29,051 nucleotides of DNA, taken from a virus. Lineage: Duplodnaviria > Heunggongvirae > Uroviricota > Caudoviricetes. A program made the translations under genes and the position numbers. Below the pieces are notes generated by a model. That model searched no databases and was not told where the DNA came from. It was given only the letters and a program-made list of their open reading frames with translations. The DNA is taken from IMG/VR virus record IMGVR_UViG_2778261705_000026, one strand, 5' to 3'. Shown here piece after piece: positions 6,663 to 25,553 of this stretch; the first letter of the stretch is position 1; the number at the start of each line of letters is the position of its first letter.

Positions 6663-7256
6663 CTATTTGTCCCGGTTGGCTAAGGGATGACACAATTTAT
6701 TCTTTGTCACTGATGAGGGGAATTTTTTATAGAGCGTGGACAGGCCAATATCAAAAATCAGCGCCACACGTTGACGAGATTCCCCCGCAGCCAGCAACCG
6801 TCCGACCTGCTCCCACTCACTCGCGGTGAGTTTCGGACGTCTGCCACCAATACGACCTTTGGCTCTGGCCGCTTCCAGTCCGGCGCGTGTCCGCTCGACA
6901 ATGAGTTCTCGCTCCATTTCAGCCAGGGCACCCATCACATGAAAGAAAAAACGTCCCATCGGCGTGCTGGTATCAATAGCATCCGTCAGACTGCGAAAAT
7001 TAACGCCGCGTTCGCGCAGTTCCTCAACCAGAATGACCAGATGCCGCATACTACGCCCCAGCCTGTCCAGCTTCCAGACTACCAGAGTGTCACCTGCTGA
7101 TAATGTTCTGAGCAGTTTTTTCAGTCCCGGTCTGTCGGACTTCGTGCCGCTGATTTTATCCTCAAAAATCCGCTCGCATCCTGCGCACTCCAGCGCGTTA
7201 CGCTGCAATTCCGTGTTCTGGTCATTTGTTGACACGCGTACATAGCCAATAAGCAT
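6663..7256 (-). CDS. Serine recombinase / DNA invertase of the Gin/Hin/Cin/Pin family (about 197 aa)
   Basis: MLIGYVRVSTNDQNTELQRNALECAGCERIFEDKISG...GRFFFHVMGALAEMERELIVERT...ALIFDIGLSTLYKK is near-collinear with Mu Gin as I recall it (catalytic Ser in YVRVST, C-terminal HTH); an upstream in-frame ATG at 7262 would add two residues. Confidence 0.9.
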   Translation of the reverse strand: MLIGYVRVSTNDQNTELQRNALECAGCERIFEDKISGTKSDRPGLKKLLRTLSAGDTLVVWKLDRLGRSMRHLVILVEELRERGVNFRSLTDAIDTSTPMGRFFFHVMGALAEMERELIVERTRAGLEAARAKGRIGGRRPKLTASEWEQVGRLLAAGESRQRVALIFDIGLSTLYKKFPSSVTKNKLCHPLANRDK

Positions 7257-7311
7257 GAGCATCCCCCTGAATAAAAACCGGAGATGATGCCAGTTGCCCG
7301 TTATCTCTGCA

Positions 7312-7337
7312 TTTTCATAAACGTTGGTTTGGGAGAA
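7312..7337. repeat. Inversion crossover site, left (gix/hix-like 26 bp): TTTTCATAAACG TT GGTTTGGGAGAA
   Basis: Core TT plus inner half-site GGTTTGGGAGAA are exactly inverted at 9158-9171; inner half resembles the hix GGTTTTTGATAA half-site; lies about 55 bp upstream of the invertase start. Confidence 0.75.
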
Positions 7338-7697
7338 GCGGCAAAACGGGATGTGGGGACAGGAGAAAATCAGATACCGGACATGGCCTCTTTTGCCAGT
7401 GGTGATGGATGGATGAAATTACCCAACGGGAAAATCCTGCAATATGGTCGTGGTGCGGTTACGCCGACATTATCGACGCAAACAATGAGAATTACATTCA
7501 GCATCCCTTTTCCTAAAAAAGTGGACTGCGCCATGCTTACCCATTCTGGTGATGGTGGTGCGCCTTTAGGCGCTGGACGGGGATTCGTGATGACTGCAGA
7601 AGGTACAACACTAACCGGTTTTAATTCCGCTTACAGAACTGCATCAACCAGCGACACGGTATCGATGAATTACAGTTGGTGGGCTGTTGGTGAGTAA
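7326..7697 (+). CDS. Alternative tail-fibre C-terminal variable domain Hv' (promoterless and silent in this orientation)
   Basis: Plus-strand frame GLGEAAKRDVGTGENQIPDMASFASGDGWMKLPNGK... begins exactly at the crossover site with the same GGT TTG GGA GAA codons that continue the H constant part; the ORF-track N-terminus 7284-7325 lies outside the segment behind an in-frame TAA at 7272. Confidence 0.7.
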   Translation, partial: GLGEAAKRDVGTGENQIPDMASFASGDGWMKLPNGKILQYGRGAVTPTLSTQTMRITFSIPFPKKVDCAMLTHSGDGGAPLGAGRGFVMTAEGTTLTGFNSAYRTASTSDTVSMNYSWWAVGE

Positions 7698-7717
7698 TTT
7701 TATTCAGGGTGATTTAT

Positions 7718-8161
7718 ATGAACGAATATGTTTATAGCGCAAGGCATAATGCTTTTTTCCCTGTGGATATGATTGATAAATATAAATCAGAGGGATGGAA
7801 TTTATCAGACGCTAAGGAAGTAAATCAAAATATTATCAGTGAGTTTATGGCTGAACCGCCACAAGGAAAAATCCGTATTGCCGGAGATGATGGGCTGCCT
7901 GCGTGGGCAGATATTCCTCCACCCACGCATGAAGAGCTTATTGAAATTACTGAATCAGAAAGACAGCTACTAATTAACCAGGCCAACGAATACATGAACA
8001 GTAAGCAATGGCCCGGTAAAGCCGCTATTGGTCGTCTGAAAGGTGAGGAACTGGCGCAATATAATTTGTGGCTGGATTATCTGGACGCACTGGAGCTGGT
8101 TGATACCTCCAGTGCGCCAGATATTGAATGGCCTACGCCTCCGGCAGTTCAGGCCAGATGA
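7718..8161 (+). CDS. Alternative tail fibre assembly protein G' (silent in this orientation)
   Basis: C-terminus ...LWLDYLDALELVDTSSAPDIEWPTPP parallels the active G C-terminus ...AVLDYIDAVTATDTSTAPDVIWPELPEA; ATG at 7718 with AGGGTGA upstream; the track start at 7709 is GTG. Confidence 0.7.
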   Translation: MNEYVYSARHNAFFPVDMIDKYKSEGWNLSDAKEVNQNIISEFMAEPPQGKIRIAGDDGLPAWADIPPPTHEELIEITESERQLLINQANEYMNSKQWPGKAAIGRLKGEELAQYNLWLDYLDALELVDTSSAPDIEWPTPPAVQAR

Positions 8162-8735
8162 CATCCGGCGCTGTGCTGGTATCCGTTGCCGTCACCGCGT
8201 CAATGTAATCCAGCACAGCGTTTAGTCGGGTGGTTTCTGTCTGCGTCAGCTTCCTCCCGGCCCGCAATTTCAGTTGAATCAGACTAATGGAAGCCATTGC
8301 TGCATCAATCAGCGACTGGCGCTGTGCTTCTGCTGCATCTACTGCGGCGCTATGCTGTGCCTCGGTATCCGTCACCCATTTCTCACCATCCCATTTATCA
8401 TATGGCGTTAATGGGGCGATAGTGGTTGTATTTTCAGGGTAATCACCCGGAGCTGTGATTTCTTTTGATTCCCCTGTTTCGGTGCTAAAAACGATTTCAC
8501 CGCGATGGTCTGGCATATATTCCCATGATTTTAAATCTGCTGAACGGCAGATTGCATAACCAGCCTTATGTGTGCCAGGGGCATCTAAACAGGAACATGC
8601 CGGAATGCCGACACCAACGGCAAGATATTCATTTGAAGTGGAAATATATTCCCGTGTTTCACCATCATAGTTATAAACGGTAACATCCCCTGCCTTTGTT
8701 GCAATGAGCTCACTATTTAATATTGCTTTATGCAT
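8133..8735 (-). CDS. G: Tail fibre assembly protein G (currently expressed orientation), 200 aa
   Basis: Conserved tfa C-terminal motif; ATG overlaps the H stop (ATGA); directly after H. Confidence 0.85.
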   Translation of the reverse strand: MHKAILNSELIATKAGDVTVYNYDGETREYISTSNEYLAVGVGIPACSCLDAPGTHKAGYAICRSADLKSWEYMPDHRGEIVFSTETGESKEITAPGDYPENTTTIAPLTPYDKWDGEKWVTDTEAQHSAAVDAAEAQRQSLIDAAMASISLIQLKLRAGRKLTQTETTRLNAVLDYIDAVTATDTSTAPDVIWPELPEA

Positions 8736-18929: not shown

Positions 18930-20702
18930 ATGACCATCACCACAGACACCACTCTTTTACACGACCCGCGTCGTCAGGCGGCGCTGCTGTACTGGCAGGG
19001 GTTTTCCGTGCCGCAGATTGCCGCCATGTTGCAGATGAAACGCCCGACGGTGCAGAGCTGGAAACAGCGCGACGGCTGGGACAGCGTTGCCCCCATCAGC
19101 CGTGTCGAAATGAGTCTGGAAGCGCGGCTGACCCAGCTCATCATCAAACCGCAGAAAACCGGCGGTGACTTCAAGGAAATTGACCTGCTCGGACGCCAGA
19201 TTGAACGACTGGCACGGGTCAACCGTTACAGTCAGACCGGCAACGAGGCAGACCTTAATCCGAACGTCGCTAACCGCAACAAAGGCGGGCGTCGCAAACC
19301 GAAAAAGAATTTTTTCAGTGACGAGGCCATCGAAAAGCTGGAGCAGATTTTCTTTGAGCAGTCTTTCGAATATCAGTTGCACTGGTATCGCGCCGGGCTT
19401 GAGCACCGCATCCGCGATATCCTGAAATCCCGCCAGATTGGCGCGACGTTTTATTTTTCCCGCGAGGCGCTGCTGCGCGCCCTGAAAACAGGTCATAACC
19501 AGATTTTTCTGTCGGCCAGTAAAACGCAGGCGTATGTGTTCCGTGAATACATCATCGCCTTTGCCCGGCTGGTTGACGTTGACCTGACCGGTGACCCGAT
19601 TGTCCTGGGCAATAACGGCGCAAAACTGATTTTTCTCGGCACCAACTCCAACACCGCGCAGAGCCATAACGGCGACCTGTACGTCGATGAGATTTTCTGG
19701 ATCCCGAATTTTCAGGTACTGCGTAAGGTGGCATCAGGTATGGCCTCACAGAGTCACCTGCGCTCGACCTATTTCTCCACCCCGTCCACGCTGGCGCACG
19801 ACGCCTACCCGTTCTGGTCAGGTGAACTGTTCAACCGGGGACGCGCCAGCGCCGCCGAACGCGTGGAAATCGACGTCAGTCATAACGCCCTTGCCGGTGG
19901 GCTTCTCTGTGCGGACGGCCAGTGGCGGCAGATTGTCACCATTGAGGACGCCCTGAAAGGCGGCTGCACACTGTTCGACATTGAGCAGCTCAAACGCGAA
20001 AACAGCGCCGACGATTTTAAAAACCTGTTCATGTGTGAATTTGTTGACGACAAGGCGTCGGTATTCCCGTTCGAGGAGCTGCAACGCTGCATGGTCGACA
20101 CGCTGGAAGAATGGGAAGACTATGCGCCGTTTGCCGCCAATCCGTTCGGCTCCCGCCCGGTATGGATTGGTTACGACCCGTCACACCGTGGCGACAGCGC
20201 CGGATGCGTGGTGCTGGCACCGCCGGTGGTGGCCGGTGGCAAATTCAGAATACTTGAGCGTCACCAGTGGAAAGGCATGGACTTTGCCACCCAGGCTGAA
20301 TCCATCCGCAAACTCACTGAAAAATACAACGTCGAATACATCGGTATTGATGCCACCGGCCTCGGTGTCGGCGTGTTCCAGCTCGTGCGCTCGTTCTATC
20401 CCGCCGCGCGTGATATCCGCTACACGCCGGAAATGAAAACCGCAATGGTGCTCAAGGCAAAAGACGTCATCCGCCGTGGCTGTCTGGAATATGACGTCAG
20501 CGCCACCGACATCACCAGCTCGTTTATGGCTATCCGCAAGACCATGACCAGCAGCGGACGCAGCGCCACCTATGAGGCCAGCCGCAGCGAGGAAGCCAGC
20601 CACGCCGACCTCGCCTGGGCGACCATGCACGCCCTGTTAAATGAGCCACTCACCGCCGGTATCAGCACCCCGCTGACATCCACCATTCTGGAGTTTTACT
20701 GA
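18930..20702 (+). CDS. P: Terminase ATPase (large) subunit P, 590 aa
   Basis: Begins MTITTDTTLLHDPRRQAALLYWQGFSVPQIAAMLQ...; GAGG ribosome-binding site at 18921-18924; the track start at 18900 is TTG. Confidence 0.92.
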   Translation: MTITTDTTLLHDPRRQAALLYWQGFSVPQIAAMLQMKRPTVQSWKQRDGWDSVAPISRVEMSLEARLTQLIIKPQKTGGDFKEIDLLGRQIERLARVNRYSQTGNEADLNPNVANRNKGGRRKPKKNFFSDEAIEKLEQIFFEQSFEYQLHWYRAGLEHRIRDILKSRQIGATFYFSREALLRALKTGHNQIFLSASKTQAYVFREYIIAFARLVDVDLTGDPIVLGNNGAKLIFLGTNSNTAQSHNGDLYVDEIFWIPNFQVLRKVASGMASQSHLRSTYFSTPSTLAHDAYPFWSGELFNRGRASAAERVEIDVSHNALAGGLLCADGQWRQIVTIEDALKGGCTLFDIEQLKRENSADDFKNLFMCEFVDDKASVFPFEELQRCMVDTLEEWEDYAPFAANPFGSRPVWIGYDPSHRGDSAGCVVLAPPVVAGGKFRILERHQWKGMDFATQAESIRKLTEKYNVEYIGIDATGLGVGVFQLVRSFYPAARDIRYTPEMKTAMVLKAKDVIRRGCLEYDVSATDITSSFMAIRKTMTSSGRSATYEASRSEEASHADLAWATMHALLNEPLTAGISTPLTSTILEFY

Positions 20703-21736
20703 TGAGCAAGAAAAAAGGGAAAACACCGCAACCTGCGGCAAAAAAAATGACCGCCAGCGCCCCGAAAATGGAGGCATTCACCTTTGGTGAGCCAGTGCCG
20801 GTACTCGACCGCCGTGACATTCTGGATTACGTCGAGTGCATCAGTAACGGCAGATGGTATGAGCCACCGGTCAGCTTTACCGGTCTGGCAAAAAGCCTGC
20901 GTGCTGCCGTGCATCACAGCTCGCCGATTTACGTCAAACGTAATATTCTGGCCTCGACATTTATCCCGCATCCGTGGCTTTCCCAGCAGGATTTCAGCCG
21001 CTTTGTGCTGGATTTTCTGGTGTTCGGTAATGCATTTCTGGAAAAGCGTTACAGCACCACCGGTAAGGTCATCAGACTGGAAACCTCACCGGCAAAATAT
21101 ACCCGCCGTGGCGTGGAGGAGGATGTTTACTGGTGGGTGCCGTCCTTCAACGAGCCGACAGCCTTCGCGCCCGGTTCCGTGTTTCACCTGCTGGAGCCGG
21201 ATATTAATCAGGAGCTGTACGGCCTGCCGGAATATCTCAGCGCCCTTAACTCTGCCTGGCTGAATGAGTCGGCCACGCTGTTCCGCCGCAAGTATTACGA
21301 AAACGGCGCACATGCCGGATACATCATGTACGTCACTGATGCCGTGCAGGATCGCAACGATATCGAAATGCTCCGCGAAAACATGGTGAAGTCGAAAGGC
21401 CGCAACAACTTTAAAAATCTGTTTCTCTATGCCCCGCAAGGGAAAGCCGACGGCATTAAAATTATCCCGCTCAGTGAAGTGGCAACGAAGGACGATTTTT
21501 TTAATATCAAAAAAGCCAGCGCCGCAGACCTGCTGGACGCGCACCGCATCCCTTTTCAGTTGATGGGCGGCAAGCCGGAGAACGTCGGGTCGCTGGGTGA
21601 TATTGAGAAAGTGGCAAAGGTCTTTGTCCGCAATGAGCTTATCCCGTTACAGGACAGGATCCGCGAGATAAACGGCTGGCTCGGTCAGGAGGTCATCCGC
21701 TTTAAAAACTACTCACTGGACACCGACAACGGCTGA
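20702..21736 (+). CDS. Q: Portal (capsid) protein Q, 344 aa
   Basis: Size and position match P2 gpQ; ATG overlaps the P stop (TGATG). Confidence 0.92.
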   Translation: MSKKKGKTPQPAAKKMTASAPKMEAFTFGEPVPVLDRRDILDYVECISNGRWYEPPVSFTGLAKSLRAAVHHSSPIYVKRNILASTFIPHPWLSQQDFSRFVLDFLVFGNAFLEKRYSTTGKVIRLETSPAKYTRRGVEEDVYWWVPSFNEPTAFAPGSVFHLLEPDINQELYGLPEYLSALNSAWLNESATLFRRKYYENGAHAGYIMYVTDAVQDRNDIEMLRENMVKSKGRNNFKNLFLYAPQGKADGIKIIPLSEVATKDDFFNIKKASAADLLDAHRIPFQLMGGKPENVGSLGDIEKVAKVFVRNELIPLQDRIREINGWLGQEVIRFKNYSLDTDNG

Positions 21737-21905: not shown

Positions 21906-21924
21906 GTGCTTTCCCCGCCTCGCC
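21906..21924. other. cos: cos site (19-nt cohesive-end sequence; window shows GTGCTTTCCCCGCCTCGCC)
   Basis: Reverse complement equals GGCGAGGCGGGGAAAGCAC, which I recall as the P2 cohesive end; adjacent to Q as in P2. Confidence 0.6.
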
Positions 21925-22052
21925 CGCCCGCTTTATGGGTCGATTTTAATGCAAGTGCACGAACACACCGGAGGCGCACCAGTACTGGCGGTGGTCACGT
22001 AGGTCCACCCCTTAAAAGCCATGCAGAATAATGCAACTATTGCGGGCGTCGG

Positions 22053-22472
22053 CTAATCATCTTCTAAAGGTGGAATTTTGATGCCACTAATTAGCAGGAC
22101 TTTCCGGTATGCCTCAAAAATAATGTTGTGTGTTTTTTTTAAATCATCGAGCATTTTTTGTCGTCCTGTTGGGGTATTTCTGGCGAAATTATGAGCGCGA
22201 AAAAAATCATGTGCCAAGTAGTTTCGAGCTGATAGAGCCAGTTCTACATGTTGTAGAGTTTCATCATCTGCCACCCCTTTTTGACGCAATAAATTGCTTA
22301 GACTACCTAATGTTAACTTATCAAATTTTAAGAATTTTTCTTTTAATGTTGGAATGTCTTCACCTTGCTTCATTTCATGTTCGATAAGGACATTAATCAG
22401 TTCAGCTTCCAACAAGTGTGCAGCTTCTGAGGTGTAACCGAACTTCCAAAAGACTTCATCAAGTGTTGCCAT
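22053..22472 (-). CDS. Hypothetical cargo protein, 139 aa, all-helical, with Rx4HxF motif (candidate HEPN/HepT-like RNase)
   Basis: Visibly AT-rich compared with flanking phage genes; motif ...LALSARNYLAHDFFRAH...; ATG at 22470-22472 (the track start at 22481 is GTG); ends just before the cos flank. Confidence 0.6.
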   Translation of the reverse strand: MATLDEVFWKFGYTSEAAHLLEAELINVLIEHEMKQGEDIPTLKEKFLKFDKLTLGSLSNLLRQKGVADDETLQHVELALSARNYLAHDFFRAHNFARNTPTGRQKMLDDLKKTHNIIFEAYRKVLLISGIKIPPLEDD

Positions 22473-22609
22473 ATGTTCCACTCAAGATAAATGCAGGTTA
22501 TGAAAAAGAAGAATGATGATGGAAATTCCAGATGAAGTCTAACGCCTCGCTCCGCTCGTTGTTCAACCCCGCCAGCCCTGAAAACAAGTTTCACGACTGG
22601 CGGGGTTCT

Positions 22610-22816
22610 CTATCGTCTGCGTGGTGGTGGCGCAACTCTGGACTGACCGATATAGTTAAACCGCCCGTAATTATCCCGGACTATTTCAGCACACCCGACC
22701 AGCTCATCAGGTGTCAGATTTTCGTTGACCATAATCTGCTGTAGACGGTGAACAATGGCCATCAGCTTGATATTTTTAGTTTTATGGTGCGGTATCTCGC
22801 CTGGTATTCTGTGCAT
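22610..22816 (-). CDS. Possible small ORF (68 aa) translationally coupled to the upstream ASCH-like gene
   Basis: ATG 22814-22816 overlaps the upstream TAA (TAATG); followed 3 nt downstream by an 11-bp GC-rich hairpin; no recognisable domain; a plus-strand ORF 22532-22744 overlaps in antisense. Confidence 0.3.
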   Translation of the reverse strand: MHRIPGEIPHHKTKNIKLMAIVHRLQQIMVNENLTPDELVGCAEIVRDNYGRFNYIGQSRVAPPPRRR

Positions 22817-23271
22817 TATCCAAGCCACCCATGTTGCTTTGCACGCTCCACCTGTTCATCTGAATAGTTCCATGCTCCATCCGTGGCAACCATTGCCCCG
22901 CCTGACATCCCCGTATCTGGTTCATACATAACAGCAAGGCCGAGCTGATGCATAATTTCATGATTAATTCTGAATACCAGACCACGTTCACTAAGTTCTT
23001 TCCAGTTCACAATCTTATATGCGCCCGTATTAAGCAGCTCAATACTTAGCAAGACATAATCTTCCAGCCAGTCTGACAGGTCAGTAACATCTGTTATCCG
23101 GGCTTCAACCTTTCGCCCCGTAAACACACCCTGCACCCATTCATGCAAAATCAACGTGTCCCCGCGCTCATAATTACGGTCATTTTTCCTAAACTCTGCG
23201 CGTTTCTTTCCTTCCAGCACAAGGTCGAAATATTTTGCGTGCAGCTTTACCTCGTGAATTTTTGCCATCAT
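22816..23271 (-). CDS. ASCH/DUF3850-like protein with C-terminal HEIMH (HExxH) motif, about 151 aa
   Basis: N-terminus MAKIHEVKLHAKYFDLVLEGKKRAEFRKNDRNYERGDTLILHEW matches the DUF3850/ASCH pattern as I recall it; C-terminal RINHEIMHQLG; ATG overlaps the A stop (ATGA). Confidence 0.6.
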   Translation of the reverse strand: MMAKIHEVKLHAKYFDLVLEGKKRAEFRKNDRNYERGDTLILHEWVQGVFTGRKVEARITDVTDLSDWLEDYVLLSIELLNTGAYKIVNWKELSERGLVFRINHEIMHQLGLAVMYEPDTGMSGGAMVATDGAWNYSDEQVERAKQHGWLG

Positions 23272-25553
23272 GTCCACTCCATTACTGTTGAGAATCCCGG
23301 CCACTCATCAGTGACCGGATACGTGAATTTTTTCCCGTCATAATTTACAGTCGCGCCACGCGCCAGCGCCTCAATCTCCCATCGCTGAGGCCTGATACCG
23401 TTCTGAGCAAGGTCAACGCGGATACGGGTAATTTGCATTCGTTCCGACCGGGTCATTCTGGCCGATGGCGCTATTTCATGCGGTTTTAACGGGCCTCCGG
23501 CTCTTTGCTGACGGTTTGGTGTTCTCAGTCCGTGTTTTAATGCGCCCCTGAGCGCCCTCAAGACCTCCGGCTCATTCCATTCGATAACACCGTCATCAAC
23601 CAGATTAAGCACTGCTGCGGCGTGCTCAGAAGGTGTGGGAGCCGGTAACGAAGTATCACTACCGGTGAGCTTTCCACAGTTATTGACAGGACTCCGAGGC
23701 GCGGCGATGCCGCTTTTTAAAGTCAAAGGCTCCACGACCGGAACTTTCGGCACAATGCGCCAGTCCGTCGTTCTGGTGATATGAATATGACGCGCGCCGA
23801 GATGCGGCGCGTAAATGCCGACCACTCTCTCGACTTCTTCCTCGTACTCGTTAACTTCATCCGACGGGCTACGGGCGACTCTGACAGTCTGGCAATCGCG
23901 CGGAACATTTGCCCCACCCTGCGCACTGATATACAACGCAAAATCGCCACTGTCTGCGGCAGCGCGTGCAGCCTCGACGCGTTCGTCAAACTCATCAGCA
24001 ATGCTGACGCCGCGAGGCAATTTGCGTAGTTCACGGTAAGCCCCCATTGTCGGCAGACCAACCGTTTTAAATTGCGGGATGCGCCACGTTGACGCCCATG
24101 CAGTAACAGCCGCGGCAGTATCTTTCAGAGGTCTGCCGGTATCGTTATCGAGCTGACCATCCAGTGCATAGCCGTCGATGTTTTTTGAGATGTATTTCGC
24201 GATATACCCCGCAGCACCGCCCCGATTAAGGTGTTTTGCCTGAAAACGGTTTCGCGCGGCTCCTCTTTCGTCGCCATCCTCTTTGAGCGCATAGCGACGC
24301 ATGATTTCGATAATCTGGTTACGCTGGCGTGGATTACAAAAAAGCATCATATGCCAGTGCGGCGTTCCGTCGTGGTGTGGCTCGACGACTCGCAAACCGT
24401 AGACCTGTAAATCATTATCCTTGAATGCCGTGCGCATCAGGCTCCAGATACGGCAGAGATAACGCTGCGCATCCTTTGGATTAAATGCCTCATCATTCCA
24501 GCCGTGATTAAGCTGGACGGTTTTACTTTCGCCTTTTCCGACCTGACGTGTCGGGTGATACTTTGACGGCGCGGTCAGCGTGATAAACATCCCCACATCA
24601 CCCTCTGCGGCGGCGTAACGCTCAATACCGGCAATGGTGTTCATCAGCTCCATCCGGCGAATTTCAGGATTAGAAATACTGCCCATCACCTTACTGATAA
24701 GGTCGATGCGCTCGCCGGTTTCCCTGTTTTCAAGGTCACACGATTTAAGAAATTCCAGATTTGCCTGGCGGCGCGCACGCACATCACGAATGGCGTGTTT
24801 ACTGGCATAAGGAGAACGGTCTTTATTGACCTCCCCGACAGCTATCAGTAACGCTTCATGCCAGCGCATACGCTGGCCTTTAAGCTGATGAGTCCACCAC
24901 TCATCGTTAAACAGACGGGCAATGGCAGAATATGCCTGCCTCGTGGTCATCTGTCCTTTACGGTATTTTTTCCAGTAAAGCGGGGAAATATTGAAAGCAC
25001 GTGCAGCGCCAGCAACATGACCATACAGATGCGCCTGCGCCTCATCCGTAAACAGCGATTCTTTTTCGCCATGCGCATCCACCCAAGCATCGCAGAGTTC
25101 CTCATACATCATGAAAAGCTGCGATGAGATACGGGCGGCAAACTTTTTCAGATCCTTGTCATTCATCCCCGGCAGACGCGCATAGTGGTCACGCTCAGCC
25201 AGAAACAGCATCGACGCTTCGGTGTTCATTTCATGGCGCTGATTCACACGCTCAATGCGCGGCCATAAACGACGCTGAAAAGTGGATGTGAGGAAATAAA
25301 ACCCGTGCACCGGGCTTTTATTGCGCCGGATGTAGTCATAGCGTGAAGTAAACAGCGAGCGCAAAAAGTAAGGCAGGCGGTTAATCGTGGATAAAACACC
25401 TTGCACCTGACGCATCTCGTCACGTGTAAGGGGTCTTTCGCGCCCGACAGCCTCGCGTGGCGCGTTCCATGCATAAGCACCGGCAAACGTCTTACCGGTG
25501 CCTGCGGAAAATGCTGACGGAGGGACAAAACGCCCGGAGGCTTTAACGGCCAT
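23268..25553 (-). CDS. A: Replication initiation endonuclease A (rolling-circle initiator), 761 aa
   Basis: Begins MAVKASGRFVPPSAFSAGTGKTFAGAYAWNAPREAVGRERPLTRDEMRQVQ as P2 gpA; ATG 25551-25553; the track start at 25595 is an upstream extension. Confidence 0.92.
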   Translation of the reverse strand: MAVKASGRFVPPSAFSAGTGKTFAGAYAWNAPREAVGRERPLTRDEMRQVQGVLSTINRLPYFLRSLFTSRYDYIRRNKSPVHGFYFLTSTFQRRLWPRIERVNQRHEMNTEASMLFLAERDHYARLPGMNDKDLKKFAARISSQLFMMYEELCDAWVDAHGEKESLFTDEAQAHLYGHVAGAARAFNISPLYWKKYRKGQMTTRQAYSAIARLFNDEWWTHQLKGQRMRWHEALLIAVGEVNKDRSPYASKHAIRDVRARRQANLEFLKSCDLENRETGERIDLISKVMGSISNPEIRRMELMNTIAGIERYAAAEGDVGMFITLTAPSKYHPTRQVGKGESKTVQLNHGWNDEAFNPKDAQRYLCRIWSLMRTAFKDNDLQVYGLRVVEPHHDGTPHWHMMLFCNPRQRNQIIEIMRRYALKEDGDERGAARNRFQAKHLNRGGAAGYIAKYISKNIDGYALDGQLDNDTGRPLKDTAAAVTAWASTWRIPQFKTVGLPTMGAYRELRKLPRGVSIADEFDERVEAARAAADSGDFALYISAQGGANVPRDCQTVRVARSPSDEVNEYEEEVERVVGIYAPHLGARHIHITRTTDWRIVPKVPVVEPLTLKSGIAAPRSPVNNCGKLTGSDTSLPAPTPSEHAAAVLNLVDDGVIEWNEPEVLRALRGALKHGLRTPNRQQRAGGPLKPHEIAPSARMTRSERMQITRIRVDLAQNGIRPQRWEIEALARGATVNYDGKKFTYPVTDEWPGFSTVMEWT

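What the first reader, a model, noticed from the sequence alone, without database searches (positions are those of the whole stretch)
22053..22472. AT-rich solitary 139-aa ORF with an Rx4HxF motif: candidate HEPN/HepT-like RNase toxin without an adjacent MNT partner
The translation contains SARNYLAHDFF, which fits the R-x4-H-x-(Y/F) signature of HEPN/HepT-type RNases, in a helical protein of typical HEPN size. The gene is much more AT-rich than the surrounding phage genes, suggesting recent acquisition. It has its own upstream AT-rich region and points toward cos. HepT toxins normally sit beside an MntA nucleotidyltransferase antitoxin, but no ORF with a GS...D-x-D motif is present nearby, so any toxicity would need a different control.
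Basis: partly seen in the sequence, partly recalled or inferred. Interest (0 to 1): 0.8.

Follow-up and report, generated by a model that had tools for sequence, protein, structure and literature searches.

The report
Solo HEPN-like gene in P2 hotspot
A small, AT-rich gene beside the packaging site of a P2-like E. coli prophage belongs to a widespread, unnamed protein family with a conserved ribonuclease-type (HEPN-like) motif and no partner gene. It is most likely a one-gene anti-phage module, though this has not been tested.

Summary
A 139-aa ORF (22053-22472, minus strand; GC 37% against 53% for the window) carries SARNYLAHDFF and ends 128 nt before the P2 cos site.

The window is a P2-like prophage of E. 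coli 06-3462. The ORF is the only content of a 568-bp cargo module (21971-22538) in the known gpA-portal (tin/old) defence hotspot. No Pfam, NCBIfam or PADLOC model matches it.

An exhaustive profile search finds 678 cluster representatives across many phyla. R-N-x3-H-x-[FYW] is present in 254 of 264 retrieved proteins. Sub-threshold matches fall on seven different HEPN-clan families. The AF2 model (pLDDT 93) is an all-helical bundle with the motif at the end of the penultimate helix, as in HEPN, but the fold search is not diagnostic.

It is not a HepT/DUF86 member. It gets no PF01934 hit, it has Phe where HepT is AMPylated, and no MNT or other conserved neighbour appears in 80 loci.

The enterobacterial relatives examined all sit in the same hotspot. 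They are alone or next to unrelated cargo (HNH_2, DUF2971, GmrSD).

The best reading is a stand-alone HEPN-like RNase acting as prophage defence, analogous to HepS. Activity and defence are untested. It is a new member of a known kind, of moderate interest.

The parts
22053..22472 (-). 139-aa ORF (WP_000212183.1), a stand-alone HEPN-like protein. The AF2 model has five helices: 4-35, 40-51, 55-64, 70-93 and 101-128.
   Evidence: family membership
22203..22226 (-). Codons for R83-N84-Y-L-A-H88-D-F90, the family's RNx3Hx[FYW] signature and putative RNase active-site motif.
   Evidence: One search gives the position. Searches give conservation: 254 of 264 proteins carry the motif, and N follows R in about 250 of 268 motif matches under a slightly wider pattern.
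21971..22538 (.). Cargo module. This DNA is absent from Yersinia phage vB_YpM_50, whose backbone is 95-96% identical on both sides. It contains only this ORF and short flanks.
22473..22538 (-). Cargo-specific AT-rich 5' leader. Reading by eye gives a possible weak promoter (TTTCCA-17-CATAAC) and a GAGTGG ribosome-binding site. The consensus scanner did not call a promoter here.
   Evidence: the promoter and ribosome-binding site are inference only
21906..21924 (-). P2-type cos cohesive-end 19-mer (GGCGAGGCGGGGAAAGCAC), 128 nt downstream of the stop codon.
   Evidence: the PSP3 linear record ends immediately before it. The P2 cos sequence itself is from established knowledge.
22232..22232 (-). 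Approximate recombination breakpoint inside the gene, near nt 240 and just 5' of the RNYLAH codons. Compared with the HNH-linked allele, identity is 52-70% upstream of this point. Downstream it is 88-98% to the end of the gene, and the 3' flank toward cos is also near-identical in the printed sequences.
22566..22610 (.). Backbone hairpin (AACCCCGCCAG...CTGGCGGGGTT) just after the 68-aa ORF, upstream of the cargo. It may insulate the gene from upstream transcription.
   Evidence: One search gives only a sub-threshold RybB-terminator-like match.
22610..22816 (-). 68-aa backbone ORF (WP_000554767; its region aligns with the PSP3 gp37 region). It is not a dedicated partner. Its region is present in vB_YpM_50 without the 139-aa gene and absent from loci that have that gene.
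20702..21736 (+). Portal protein gene (gpQ), one border of the hotspot.
23268..25553 (-). Replication endonuclease gene (gpA), the other border of the hotspot. A DUF3850/ASCH orf91-like gene lies at 22816-23268.

Best explanation
The ORF is an autonomous accessory ('moron') gene in the cos-proximal gpA-gpQ defence hotspot of a P2-like prophage. It encodes a small all-helical protein of a widespread, so far unmodelled branch of the HEPN superfamily.

Proposed mechanism (inferred):
- The lysogen makes the protein from the gene's own AT-rich leader.
- The protein self-associates, bringing two RNx3H motifs together, but rests in an inactive state. This would explain why no antitoxin is needed.
- A component of a superinfecting phage switches it on.
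- It then cleaves RNA (tRNA or mRNA) without metal ions, aborting the infection.

This is the logic shown experimentally for the unrelated solo HEPN protein HepS of Gifsy-1.

Shown here: the genomic position, the cargo status, the absence of any conserved partner, the family-wide conservation of the motif, and the helical fold with the motif at the HEPN position.

Inferred only: HEPN homology (from sub-threshold profile hits plus motif and topology), oligomerisation, RNase activity, resting inactivity, the phage trigger and the defence role.
For: Position and cargo status:
- The window is 100% identical to the P2-like prophage of E. coli 06-3462.
- The gene lies between gpA and the portal gene, 128 nt from cos.
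- This is the hotspot that carries tin/old and many validated defence systems (PMC9122126; PMC9519451). Table S5 of PMC9122126 lists this very locus.
- The gene is a 568-bp insertion relative to a phage with a 95-96% identical backbone.
- It is AT-rich, as are the five enterobacterial homologues measured.

Autonomy:
- The 139-aa (138-aa in Lelliottia) homologue is the sole cargo in Lelliottia prophages.
- Elsewhere it sits beside unrelated cargo: HNH_2, DUF2971 plus two hypotheticals, GmrSD_N, and Tum/DinI in PSP3.
- In 80 loci from many phyla no neighbour family recurs in more than 3 loci. Further contexts are equally heterogeneous.

HEPN-like character:
- There are 678 representatives at E<=1e-3.
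- R83, N84, L86, H88 and F90 are at least 90% conserved in 91 sequences at 19-87% identity to the query.
- RNx3Hx[FYW] is present in 254 of 264 proteins.
- The polar residue after R and the motif at the end of the penultimate helix match the published HEPN definition.
- Sub-threshold Pfam hits hit DUF4145 (5 members), HepT-like (4), RiboL-PSP (3), Apea (3), Cthe2314 (2), MAE_28990 (2) and LA2681 (2).
- PADLOC gives weak hits to Cas13-ApeA, Cas13a, Cas13b and PD-T4-2_B, alongside equally weak hits to LmuA, LmuB, Cas1b, NsnA and PDC-M49B.
- A family consensus matches DUF4145 across the RNRLAH stretch at E=0.0068.

Self-association:
- One natural protein is a tandem duplication of the domain with two RNxLAH motifs (P0091).
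- Two loci have overlapping two-paralogue operons (L032, L052).

Precedent:
- HepS is a prophage-encoded solo HEPN with no partner. It is non-toxic at rest, is triggered by a phage tail-tip protein, and cleaves tRNA anticodon loops (PMC13043305).
Against: - No curated model recognises the protein. Every HEPN profile hit is below threshold.
- The best HepT hit in the family belongs to a separate fused domain.
- Foldseek finds nothing significant in PDB or BFVD.
- Profile searches of PDB sequences return no HEPN entry.
- The conserved acidic residue (E22) lies in helix 1, not in the Ex3[KR] context of helix 2 described for many HEPN families.
- Some relatives are fused to a WapI-type immunity domain, which could point to an immunity or binding role instead.
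- No expression, toxicity, RNase or phage-protection data exist. The 'HNH_2 + hypothetical' arrangement does not appear in the table of tested systems, and this locus's protein accession does not appear there either.
- No promoter was called by the consensus scan.
Confidence: 0.5

Rival explanations
1. The protein is not an enzyme. It would be a helical binding protein, such as an immunity, anti-defence or regulatory factor, that neutralises a nuclease or toxin of the host, a competitor phage or co-resident cargo. The conserved R/N/H would then form a binding surface.
For: - Several relatives carry an N-terminal WapI-like immunity domain (PF24716).
- One relative is fused to a degenerate HepT-like domain, which could be read as a regulator-effector fusion.
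- In E. coli the gene often sits next to nucleases: HNH_2 and GmrSD_N.
Against: - A nearly invariant R-N-x3-H-x-aromatic motif over hundreds of very divergent, mostly stand-alone proteins is typical of an active site, not of a partner-specific interface.
- There is no conserved neighbour to be immune against.
- The gene is the sole hotspot cargo in Lelliottia and effectively here.
- The weak profile hits are concentrated on HEPN nuclease families.
Confidence: 0.2
2. It is the toxin of a toxin-antitoxin pair whose antitoxin was missed. The antitoxin could be a very small ORF, an antisense or leader RNA in the AT-rich flanks, or a chromosomal factor.
For: - HEPN RNases are commonly TA toxins (PMC3710099).
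- The 66-bp AT-rich leader and 82-bp trailer are cargo-specific.
- Small ORFs overlap the gene on the opposite strand.
Against: - No Rfam match reaches threshold.
- The 68-aa upstream ORF is backbone and occurs independently of the gene.
- No small ORF recurs next to family members in 80 loci. ORFs under 50 aa and RNAs were not assessed.
- HepS shows that a solo HEPN can be harmless without an inhibitor.
Confidence: 0.1
3. It is an accessory subunit of the neighbouring hotspot nucleases (the HNH_2 443-aa protein, GmrSD or the DUF2971 set). In this prophage it would be an orphan left after the partner was lost by recombination.
For: - Twelve complete E. coli genomes carry the 75%-identical allele; in the two examined it lies 91 bp downstream of an HNH_2 protein on the same strand.
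- The gene here is a mosaic whose 3' half and cos flank are 88-98% identical to that HNH-linked allele.
Against: - The partners differ completely between contexts: HNH_2, DUF2971, GmrSD or none.
- The reading frame is intact and conserved here and where it is the sole cargo.
- Distant relatives have no conserved neighbour.
Confidence: 0.12
4. It is a phage life-cycle gene connected with cos or packaging, not a conflict gene.
For: In most contexts it is the last gene before cos.
Against: - It is absent from most P2-like phages with near-identical backbones. Of 76 phage records that match the flanks, only PSP3 (present as two records) encodes a homologue.
- Only 31 of 5426 complete E. coli genomes carry a homologue.
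- In Kosakonia a GmrSD gene separates it from the portal gene.
- Most relatives are in non-phage chromosomal contexts.
Confidence: 0.03

Closest known systems
HepS (STM14_3211), the solo HEPN abortive-infection protein of Salmonella prophage Gifsy-1 (PMC13043305)
   Same: - Small, prophage-encoded, stand-alone protein in an accessory-gene slot.
- RN-x3-H motif (HepS R100-N101...H105; here R83-N84...H88).
- No co-occurring partner or inhibitor in gene-neighbourhood analysis (for HepS; here).
   Different: - The host phage differs (lambdoid siphovirus against P2-like myovirus), as does the locus.
- The HepS tetramer, its tail-tip trigger and its anticodon-nuclease activity are experimentally shown. 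Nothing is shown for this protein.
HepT/MntA (DUF86, PF01934) type VII toxin-antitoxin systems
   Different: - No PF01934 match.
- The residue at the position of the AMPylated Tyr is an invariant Phe among close homologues.
- There is no MntA gene here or in related loci.
- The family's best HepT hit is a distinct fused domain.
DUF4145 (PF13643) and other defence-linked HEPN families: RiboL-PSP/PD-T4-2_B, ApeA, MAE_28990, LA2681
   Same: These are the models that family members and the family consensus match most often. The DUF4145 alignment covers the RNxLAH helix. All are conflict-associated HEPN families (PMC3710099).
   Different: All matches are below the curated cut-offs (best in-domain E about 0.003-0.007). 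Those families are usually fused to, or in operons with, restriction-modification components, ATPases or other partners. This family is mostly a bare single domain.
P2 tin/old and other cargo of the gpA-gpQ hotspot (PMC9122126, PMC9519451)
   Same: Same insertion slot next to cos, the same pattern of replacement between otherwise near-identical phages, and AT-rich cargo.
   Different: The proteins are unrelated. Old is an ATPase-TOPRIM nuclease and Tin an ssDNA-binding-protein poison. This is one of the smallest cargoes in the slot, and no test of it was found.
Tha, the tail-activated HEPN defence of Staphylococcus aureus prophages (PMC11087260)
   Same: Prophage-encoded HEPN-domain defence activated by a structural protein of the incoming phage, according to the paper's abstract.
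   Different: Only the abstract was consulted. No sequence or structure comparison was made. The host is Gram-positive.

Membership tests
HEPN superfamily (Anantharaman et al. 2013, PMC3710099) | Conserved Rx4-6H motif, usually with a polar N/D/H right after the Arg | tested here: met
   R83-N84-Y-L-A-H88. R, N and H are at least 90% conserved in 91 divergent homologues. The motif is present in 254 of 264 proteins, and N follows R in about 250 of 268 motif matches under a slightly wider pattern. The definition was read.
HEPN superfamily (Anantharaman et al. 2013, PMC3710099) | Motif located at the end of core helix 3, before the loop to helix 4 | tested here: met
   In the AF2 model (pLDDT 93), residues 83-88 lie in the last third of helix 70-93. 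A loop at 94-100 and the last helix at 101-128 follow.
HEPN superfamily (Anantharaman et al. 2013, PMC3710099) | Four-helix up-down bundle with a variable insert between helices 2 and 3, recognisable by structure comparison | tested here: inconclusive
   [not shown]
HEPN superfamily (Anantharaman et al. 2013, PMC3710099) | Statistically significant profile match to an established HEPN family | tested here: inconclusive
   The query itself gets no hit. Seven HEPN-clan Pfam families recur among sub-threshold hits of family members. The consensus matches DUF4145 at E=0.0068 over the motif. None reaches a gathering score within this domain.
HEPN superfamily (Anantharaman et al. 2013, PMC3710099) | Second conserved acidic residue (often Ex3[KR], in helix 2) near the active site | tested here: inconclusive
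   An invariant E22, together with Q19, exists but lies in helix 1 and has no K/R at position +4. Its 3D proximity to R83/H88 could not be measured.
HEPN superfamily (Anantharaman et al. 2013, PMC3710099) | Dimerisation that juxtaposes two Rx4-6H motifs, and metal-independent RNase activity | not testable with these tools
   Only indirect evidence exists: a natural tandem-domain protein (P0091) and two-paralogue operons.
HepT/MntA type VII TA (DUF86, PF01934) | Match to PF01934/DUF86 | tested here: not met
   There is no PF01934 hit for the query at E<=10. The 25-bit hit in P0056 covers residues 169-263, outside this domain, which occupies residues 1-148.
HepT/MntA type VII TA (DUF86, PF01934) | Adjacent MntA nucleotidyltransferase antitoxin | tested here: not met
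   None is present in the window. No recurrent neighbour appears in 80 loci or in the other contexts examined.
HepT/MntA type VII TA (DUF86, PF01934) | Tyr of RX4HXY as the site of AMPylation | tested here: not met
   Position 90 is Phe. It is invariant among the close homologues and at least 90% conserved in the family. That this Tyr is the AMPylation site is from established knowledge.
HepS-type solo HEPN defence (PMC13043305) | Stand-alone HEPN gene on a prophage with no co-occurring partner | tested here: met
   the HepS criteria were read
HepS-type solo HEPN defence (PMC13043305) | Sequence or structure homology to HepS | tested here: inconclusive
   [not shown]
HepS-type solo HEPN defence (PMC13043305) | Inactive resting oligomer, phage-protein trigger, tRNA cleavage, abortive infection | not testable with these tools
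   Requires experiments.
Cargo of the P2 gpA-gpQ (tin/old) defence hotspot (PMC9122126) | Lies between gpA and gpQ next to cos, and is replaced by other genes in otherwise near-identical phages | tested here: met
   This exact locus is listed in Table S5 of the paper.
Cargo of the P2 gpA-gpQ (tin/old) defence hotspot (PMC9122126) | Confers resistance to phages | not testable with these tools
   The searched protein accessions and the 'HNH' label occur only in the locus catalogues and the Figure-7 list, not in the table of evaluated systems. They were also not found in the DefensePredictor supplements, some of which were truncated when stored.

The most novel reading that the evidence does not exclude
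This is the founding, phage-borne example of an undescribed and very widespread family of minimal (about 140-170 aa) solo HEPN-type RNases. Sensing and killing would both be built into a single domain. Specificity could be re-assorted by recombination inside the gene, at a breakpoint just upstream of the catalytic helix, swapping the N-terminal 'sensor' half while keeping the catalytic half and the cos flank. This would be a second, independent solution to the HepS problem of defending the lysogen without an antitoxin and without harming the prophage itself.
Probability: 0.2. Interest if true: 0.7.

Novelty: new member of a known kind. Interest (0 to 1): 0.45.

Why it matters
Solo HEPN proteins have only recently been shown to be complete immune systems that both sense and kill (HepS, 2026). 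If this gene works the same way, three things follow.

- It adds a sequence-unrelated family of about 678 cluster representatives, spread over many phyla. Pfam, NCBIfam and PADLOC do not recognise it, so it counts as 'unknown' in defence censuses, including those of the P2 hotspot. There, 19% of P2 elements have no identifiable defence gene (PMC13586616).
- At 139 aa it would be one of the smallest self-contained defence modules, and easy to dissect.
- The natural alleles with swapped N-terminal halves offer a ready-made experiment on how such proteins recognise their trigger.

If it has no RNase or defence activity, it is simply one more uncharacterised prophage moron.

Tried and rejected
- Direct family assignment failed. 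Pfam, NCBIfam and PADLOC gave nothing for the query. PHROGs gave only phrog_12893, of unknown function.
- Profile searches of PDB sequences with A2 and A3 found no HEPN entry.
- I first read the family's HepT-like Pfam hits as in-domain homology. I rejected that for the best hit after finding that it lies in a separate C-terminal domain of P0056. The other three HepT-like hits were not localised.
- I tried to obtain real HepT sequences from PDB with that C-terminal domain, for a profile-profile comparison. Only an irrelevant hit came back.
- I tried to obtain the HepS sequence from the Gifsy-1 record of LT2. No ORF there has R100/H105, so no direct comparison was possible.
- I searched for a conserved partner gene. 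A5 worked and showed no recurrent neighbour.
- I considered the 68-aa upstream ORF as an antitoxin. I rejected it because its region is in the phage backbone of vB_YpM_50, which lacks the gene, and is absent from several loci that have the gene.
- I considered HNH_2 as an obligate partner. I rejected it because the contexts differ and the gene occurs as sole cargo.
- Rfam scans for a regulatory or antitoxin RNA found nothing.
- Literature and supplement searches for the protein accessions found only the catalogue entries in Rousset et al..
- The idea that the N-terminal half is generally hypervariable is only weakly supported. Mean pairwise identity is 0.72 against 0.79, and the lowest segment (36-69) is at 0.65.
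Full report
**1. The observation.**

The ORF exists as described. On the minus strand the ATG is at 22472 and the stop codon at 22053-22055, giving 139 aa. A GTG nine bases upstream is the only alternative start. RefSeq annotates the 139-aa form as hypothetical protein WP_000212183.1.

SARNYLAHDFF occupies residues 81-91. The R83-F90 codons are at 22203-22226.

The gene has 37.1% GC (GC3 30%) in a window of 53.5%. Its 400-bp bin is the lowest in the composition profile.

The P2 cohesive-end 19-mer GGCGAGGCGGGGAAAGCAC lies on the same strand at 21906-21924, 128 nt beyond the stop. The linear record of phage PSP3, which has a homologue in the same place, ends exactly there.

No nucleotidyltransferase-like ORF is nearby.

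On its own the motif is not remarkable. Rx4Hx[FY] occurs seven times in the six-frame translation of the window, although the RN version occurs only here.

**2. Where it is.**

The window is 100% identical to a P2-like prophage of E. coli 06-3462. The local gene order is:

- terminase
- portal gene (gpQ, 20702-21736, plus strand)
- cos
- the 139-aa gene (minus strand)
- a 68-aa ORF
- a DUF3850/ASCH orf91-like gene
- the replication endonuclease gpA

This gpA-gpQ interval next to cos is the tin/old locus of P2. It is a documented hotspot of anti-phage systems (PMC9122126; PMC9519451; PMC13586616).

Table S5 of PMC9122126 lists this very locus (NZ_CP034794: 'DUF3850/ASCH + hypothetical + hypothetical') among its catalogue of arrangements. 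None of the searched protein accessions occurs in the table of evaluated systems.

Yersinia phage vB_YpM_50 has a backbone 95-96% identical on both sides but lacks window 21971-22538. It carries a different hypothetical gene there. Phage L-413C carries yet another gene in its hotspot.

So the ORF, with a 66-bp AT-rich leader and an 82-bp trailer, is a 568-bp single-gene cargo module. The 68-aa ORF upstream belongs to the backbone. Its region is present in vB_YpM_50, which lacks the gene, and absent from several loci that have the gene.

**3. Relatives and their contexts.**

Close relatives (67-87% identity) are rare and confined to Enterobacteriaceae. The word-indexed search of 5.8 billion proteins found 13 clusters. 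PSP3 gp38 is the only phage-database hit. Homologues occur in 31 of 5426 complete E. coli genomes.

All the close relatives whose context I examined sit in the same hotspot of P2- or 186-like prophages, but in different company:

- Alone in Lelliottia: gpA, then the gene, then portal.
- Effectively alone in this window.
- Downstream of a 443-aa HNH_2 protein, as seen in the two examined of 12 E. coli genomes carrying that allele.
- Next to a DUF2971 gene and two hypotheticals, as seen in the two examined of 18 genomes carrying that allele.
- Between DinI and a GmrSD_N protein in Kosakonia.
- After tumAB and gp37 in PSP3.

The five enterobacterial homologues measured are AT-rich.

The gene here is a mosaic. 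Against the HNH-linked allele, nucleotide identity is 52-70% over nt 1-240. It is 88-98% from nt 241 to the end of the gene, and the 3' flank toward cos is also near-identical in the printed sequences. The breakpoint therefore lies just 5' of the RNYLAH codons.

An exhaustive profile search shows that the family is in fact large. It found 678 representatives at E<=1e-3 and 98 at E<=1e-10. A scan of one genome per species returned 80 loci from many lineages:

- Acidobacteriota
- Alpha-, Beta-, Gamma- and Deltaproteobacteria
- Planctomycetes
- Verrucomicrobia
- Spirochaetia
- Cloacimonadota
- Omnitrophota
- Thermotogota
- Flavobacteriales

I called ORFs in those loci and clustered the three neighbours on each side. 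No neighbour family recurs in more than three loci. Annotated contexts of further members are equally heterogeneous, with transposases, RadC, a small HNH and metabolic genes. The family is therefore normally a stand-alone gene.

Exceptions and fusions are informative:

- One protein is a tandem duplication of the domain with two RNxLAH motifs (P0091).
- Two loci have two different paralogues in overlapping operons (L032, L052).
- Three loci carry frameshifted copies.
- Fusion partners are a WapI-like immunity domain at the N-terminus (five retrieved proteins of 318-320 aa; Pfam-confirmed in four).
- A further partner is an unknown C-terminal domain of about 120 aa.
- One protein carries a long C-terminal extension of about 400 aa.
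- One protein carries a degenerate HepT-like domain at its C-terminus.

**4. What the protein looks like.**

In 91 sequences at 19-87% identity to the query, G12 and E22 are invariant. Twelve other positions are at least 90% conserved: Q19, T54, G56, A79, R83, N84, L86, H88, F90, G103, M107 and L111. R-x4-H-x-[FYW] is present in 254 of 264 retrieved proteins. In a slightly wider version of the motif, the residue after the Arg is Asn in about 250 of 268 matches.

The AF2 model is confident (pLDDT 93, pTM 0.84) and all-helical. Its helices are at 4-35, 40-51, 55-64, 70-93 and 101-128. The motif lies in the last third of the penultimate helix, just before the loop to the last helix.

The published definition of HEPN has these elements (PMC3710099):

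- a four-helix up-down bundle
- a poorly conserved insert between helices 2 and 3
- a polar N/D/H after the Arg
- often a second acidic residue

The motif, its polar neighbour and its position fit. The least conserved segment (residues 36-69) matches the position of the variable insert. The conserved acidic residue (E22) is in helix 1 rather than helix 2, so that point is open.

**5. How strong is the HEPN link?**

No curated model recognises the query. PDB sequence profiles find nothing.

The best sequence evidence is collective. I scanned the 91 members individually at a permissive threshold. The sub-threshold Pfam hits include DUF4145 (5 members), HepT-like (4), RiboL-PSP (3), Apea (3), Cthe2314 (2), MAE_28990 (2) and LA2681 (2). 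That is seven HEPN-clan families among the eleven most often hit, out of 24,736 models.

PADLOC's weak hits include Cas13-ApeA, Cas13a, Cas13b and PD-T4-2_B, alongside equally weak hits to LmuA, LmuB, Cas1b, NsnA and PDC-M49B. PD-T4-2_B is itself a RiboL-PSP-HEPN protein. A family consensus matches DUF4145 at E=0.0068 across the RNRLAH stretch. DUF4145 and DUF86 are HEPN families.

One correction is needed. The strongest HepT hit (25 bits) lies in residues 169-263 of P0056, outside this domain, so it is a fusion partner and not evidence of homology.

I rate HEPN-superfamily membership as likely, about two in three, but not demonstrated.

**6. Not HepT.**

Three defining features of the HepT/MntA type VII TA family were tested and not met:

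- There is no PF01934 match.
- There is no adjacent MntA here or anywhere in the family.
- The residue at the AMPylated-Tyr position is Phe, invariant among the close homologues and at least 90% conserved in the family.

The broader 'HEPN-like RNase without an MNT partner' stands as the leading hypothesis.

**7. Most likely mechanism.**

The closest functional precedent is HepS of the Gifsy-1 prophage. HepS is a single HEPN protein with R100-N101...H105 and no partner gene. It is constitutively made and non-toxic because its tetramer buries the catalytic residues. A tail-tip protein of infecting siphoviruses opens the tetramer, which then acts as an anticodon nuclease causing abortive infection (PMC13043305).

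For the present gene, several facts fit the same logic:

- It sits in a defence-hotspot slot.
- It is autonomous and is sole cargo in some prophages.
- No antitoxin is evident.
- Tandem-domain and two-paralogue variants suggest self-association.

Every functional step is inference: expression, oligomerisation, latency, trigger, RNA cleavage and protection.

The rivals are:

- a non-catalytic binding or immunity protein, suggested by the WapI fusions
- a TA toxin with a missed small antitoxin or antitoxin RNA (Rfam negative)
- an orphaned accessory subunit of neighbouring nucleases, contradicted by the variety of neighbours
- a packaging-related phage gene, contradicted by its rarity among P2-like phages

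**8. Novelty and verdict.**

Solo HEPN defence proteins on prophages are a known kind (HepS, Tha, ApeA). The P2 hotspot is well known, and this locus is already catalogued as 'hypothetical'.

Three things are new:

- the recognition that this gene belongs to a large, unmodelled family with a strictly conserved RNx3Hx[FYW] signature and HEPN-like topology
- the finding that the family is essentially always stand-alone
- the finding that the P2 allele is a mosaic, with the breakpoint in front of the catalytic helix

I found no paper or supplement that mentions these proteins beyond the catalogue.

I classify it as a new member of a known kind and give it moderate interest (0.45).

Noticed in passing
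window 6663-8735: A serine invertase gene (Resolvase + HTH_7; 6663-7262, minus strand) sits next to a tail-fibre C-terminal fragment (Gp53-like_C; 7284-7697, plus strand). Two tail-fibre assembly genes lie in opposite orientations (7709-8161 plus; 8133-8735 minus). This looks like an invertible host-range switch of the Mu G / P1 C segment type in this P2-like prophage. The region is also locally AT-rich (7601-8000, GC 0.405).
   Followed up: partly
L003 4615-5946 (E. coli K_EC180) and L004 (UPEC85): A 443-aa protein whose only recognisable domain is a C-terminal HNH_2. It lies directly upstream of the 139-aa homologue in the P2 hotspot in both loci examined, out of 12 complete E. coli genomes carrying that allele. 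Rousset et al. list the arrangement as 'HNH_2 + hypothetical', and the label is absent from their table of tested systems.
   Followed up: partly
window 22053-22472 compared with L003 4104-4523: The gene is an intragenic mosaic. Nucleotide identity to the HNH-linked allele jumps from 52-70% (nt 1-240) to 88-98% (nt 241-420), and the cos flank beyond is also near-identical. The hotspot appears to recombine inside this gene.
   Followed up: yes
L032 4842-6331 and L052 4534-5465: Two different subfamilies of the domain are encoded by adjacent genes that overlap by 4 nt. One is the 'KFGEVAEAAQLLE...LPTxHLPI' type and the other the 'VYAHFGLA...RNWLAH' type. They may form heteromeric pairs. L044, L069 and L079 carry frameshifted copies.
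   Followed up: partly
P0260, P0264 and L032 5456-6331: Some family members carry a conserved C-terminal extension of about 120 aa with no Pfam match (motif ...NPRP...W.[FY]...). Five other retrieved proteins of 318-320 aa carry an N-terminal extension, identified as a WapI-like immunity domain (PF24716) in four of them.
   Followed up: no
L086 5822-8321 (E. coli SaT040 and 17 other genomes): Another recurrent hotspot arrangement: a 380-aa hypothetical, a 158-aa hypothetical and a DUF2971 protein upstream of the 139-aa homologue. Whether it has been tested was not checked.
   Followed up: no
window 22566-22610: An 11-bp perfect inverted repeat (AACCCCGCCAG...CTGGCGGGGTT) lies right after the 68-aa backbone ORF, at the edge of the cargo. 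It has no T-run on either strand and gives only a sub-threshold match to the RybB terminator.
   Followed up: partly
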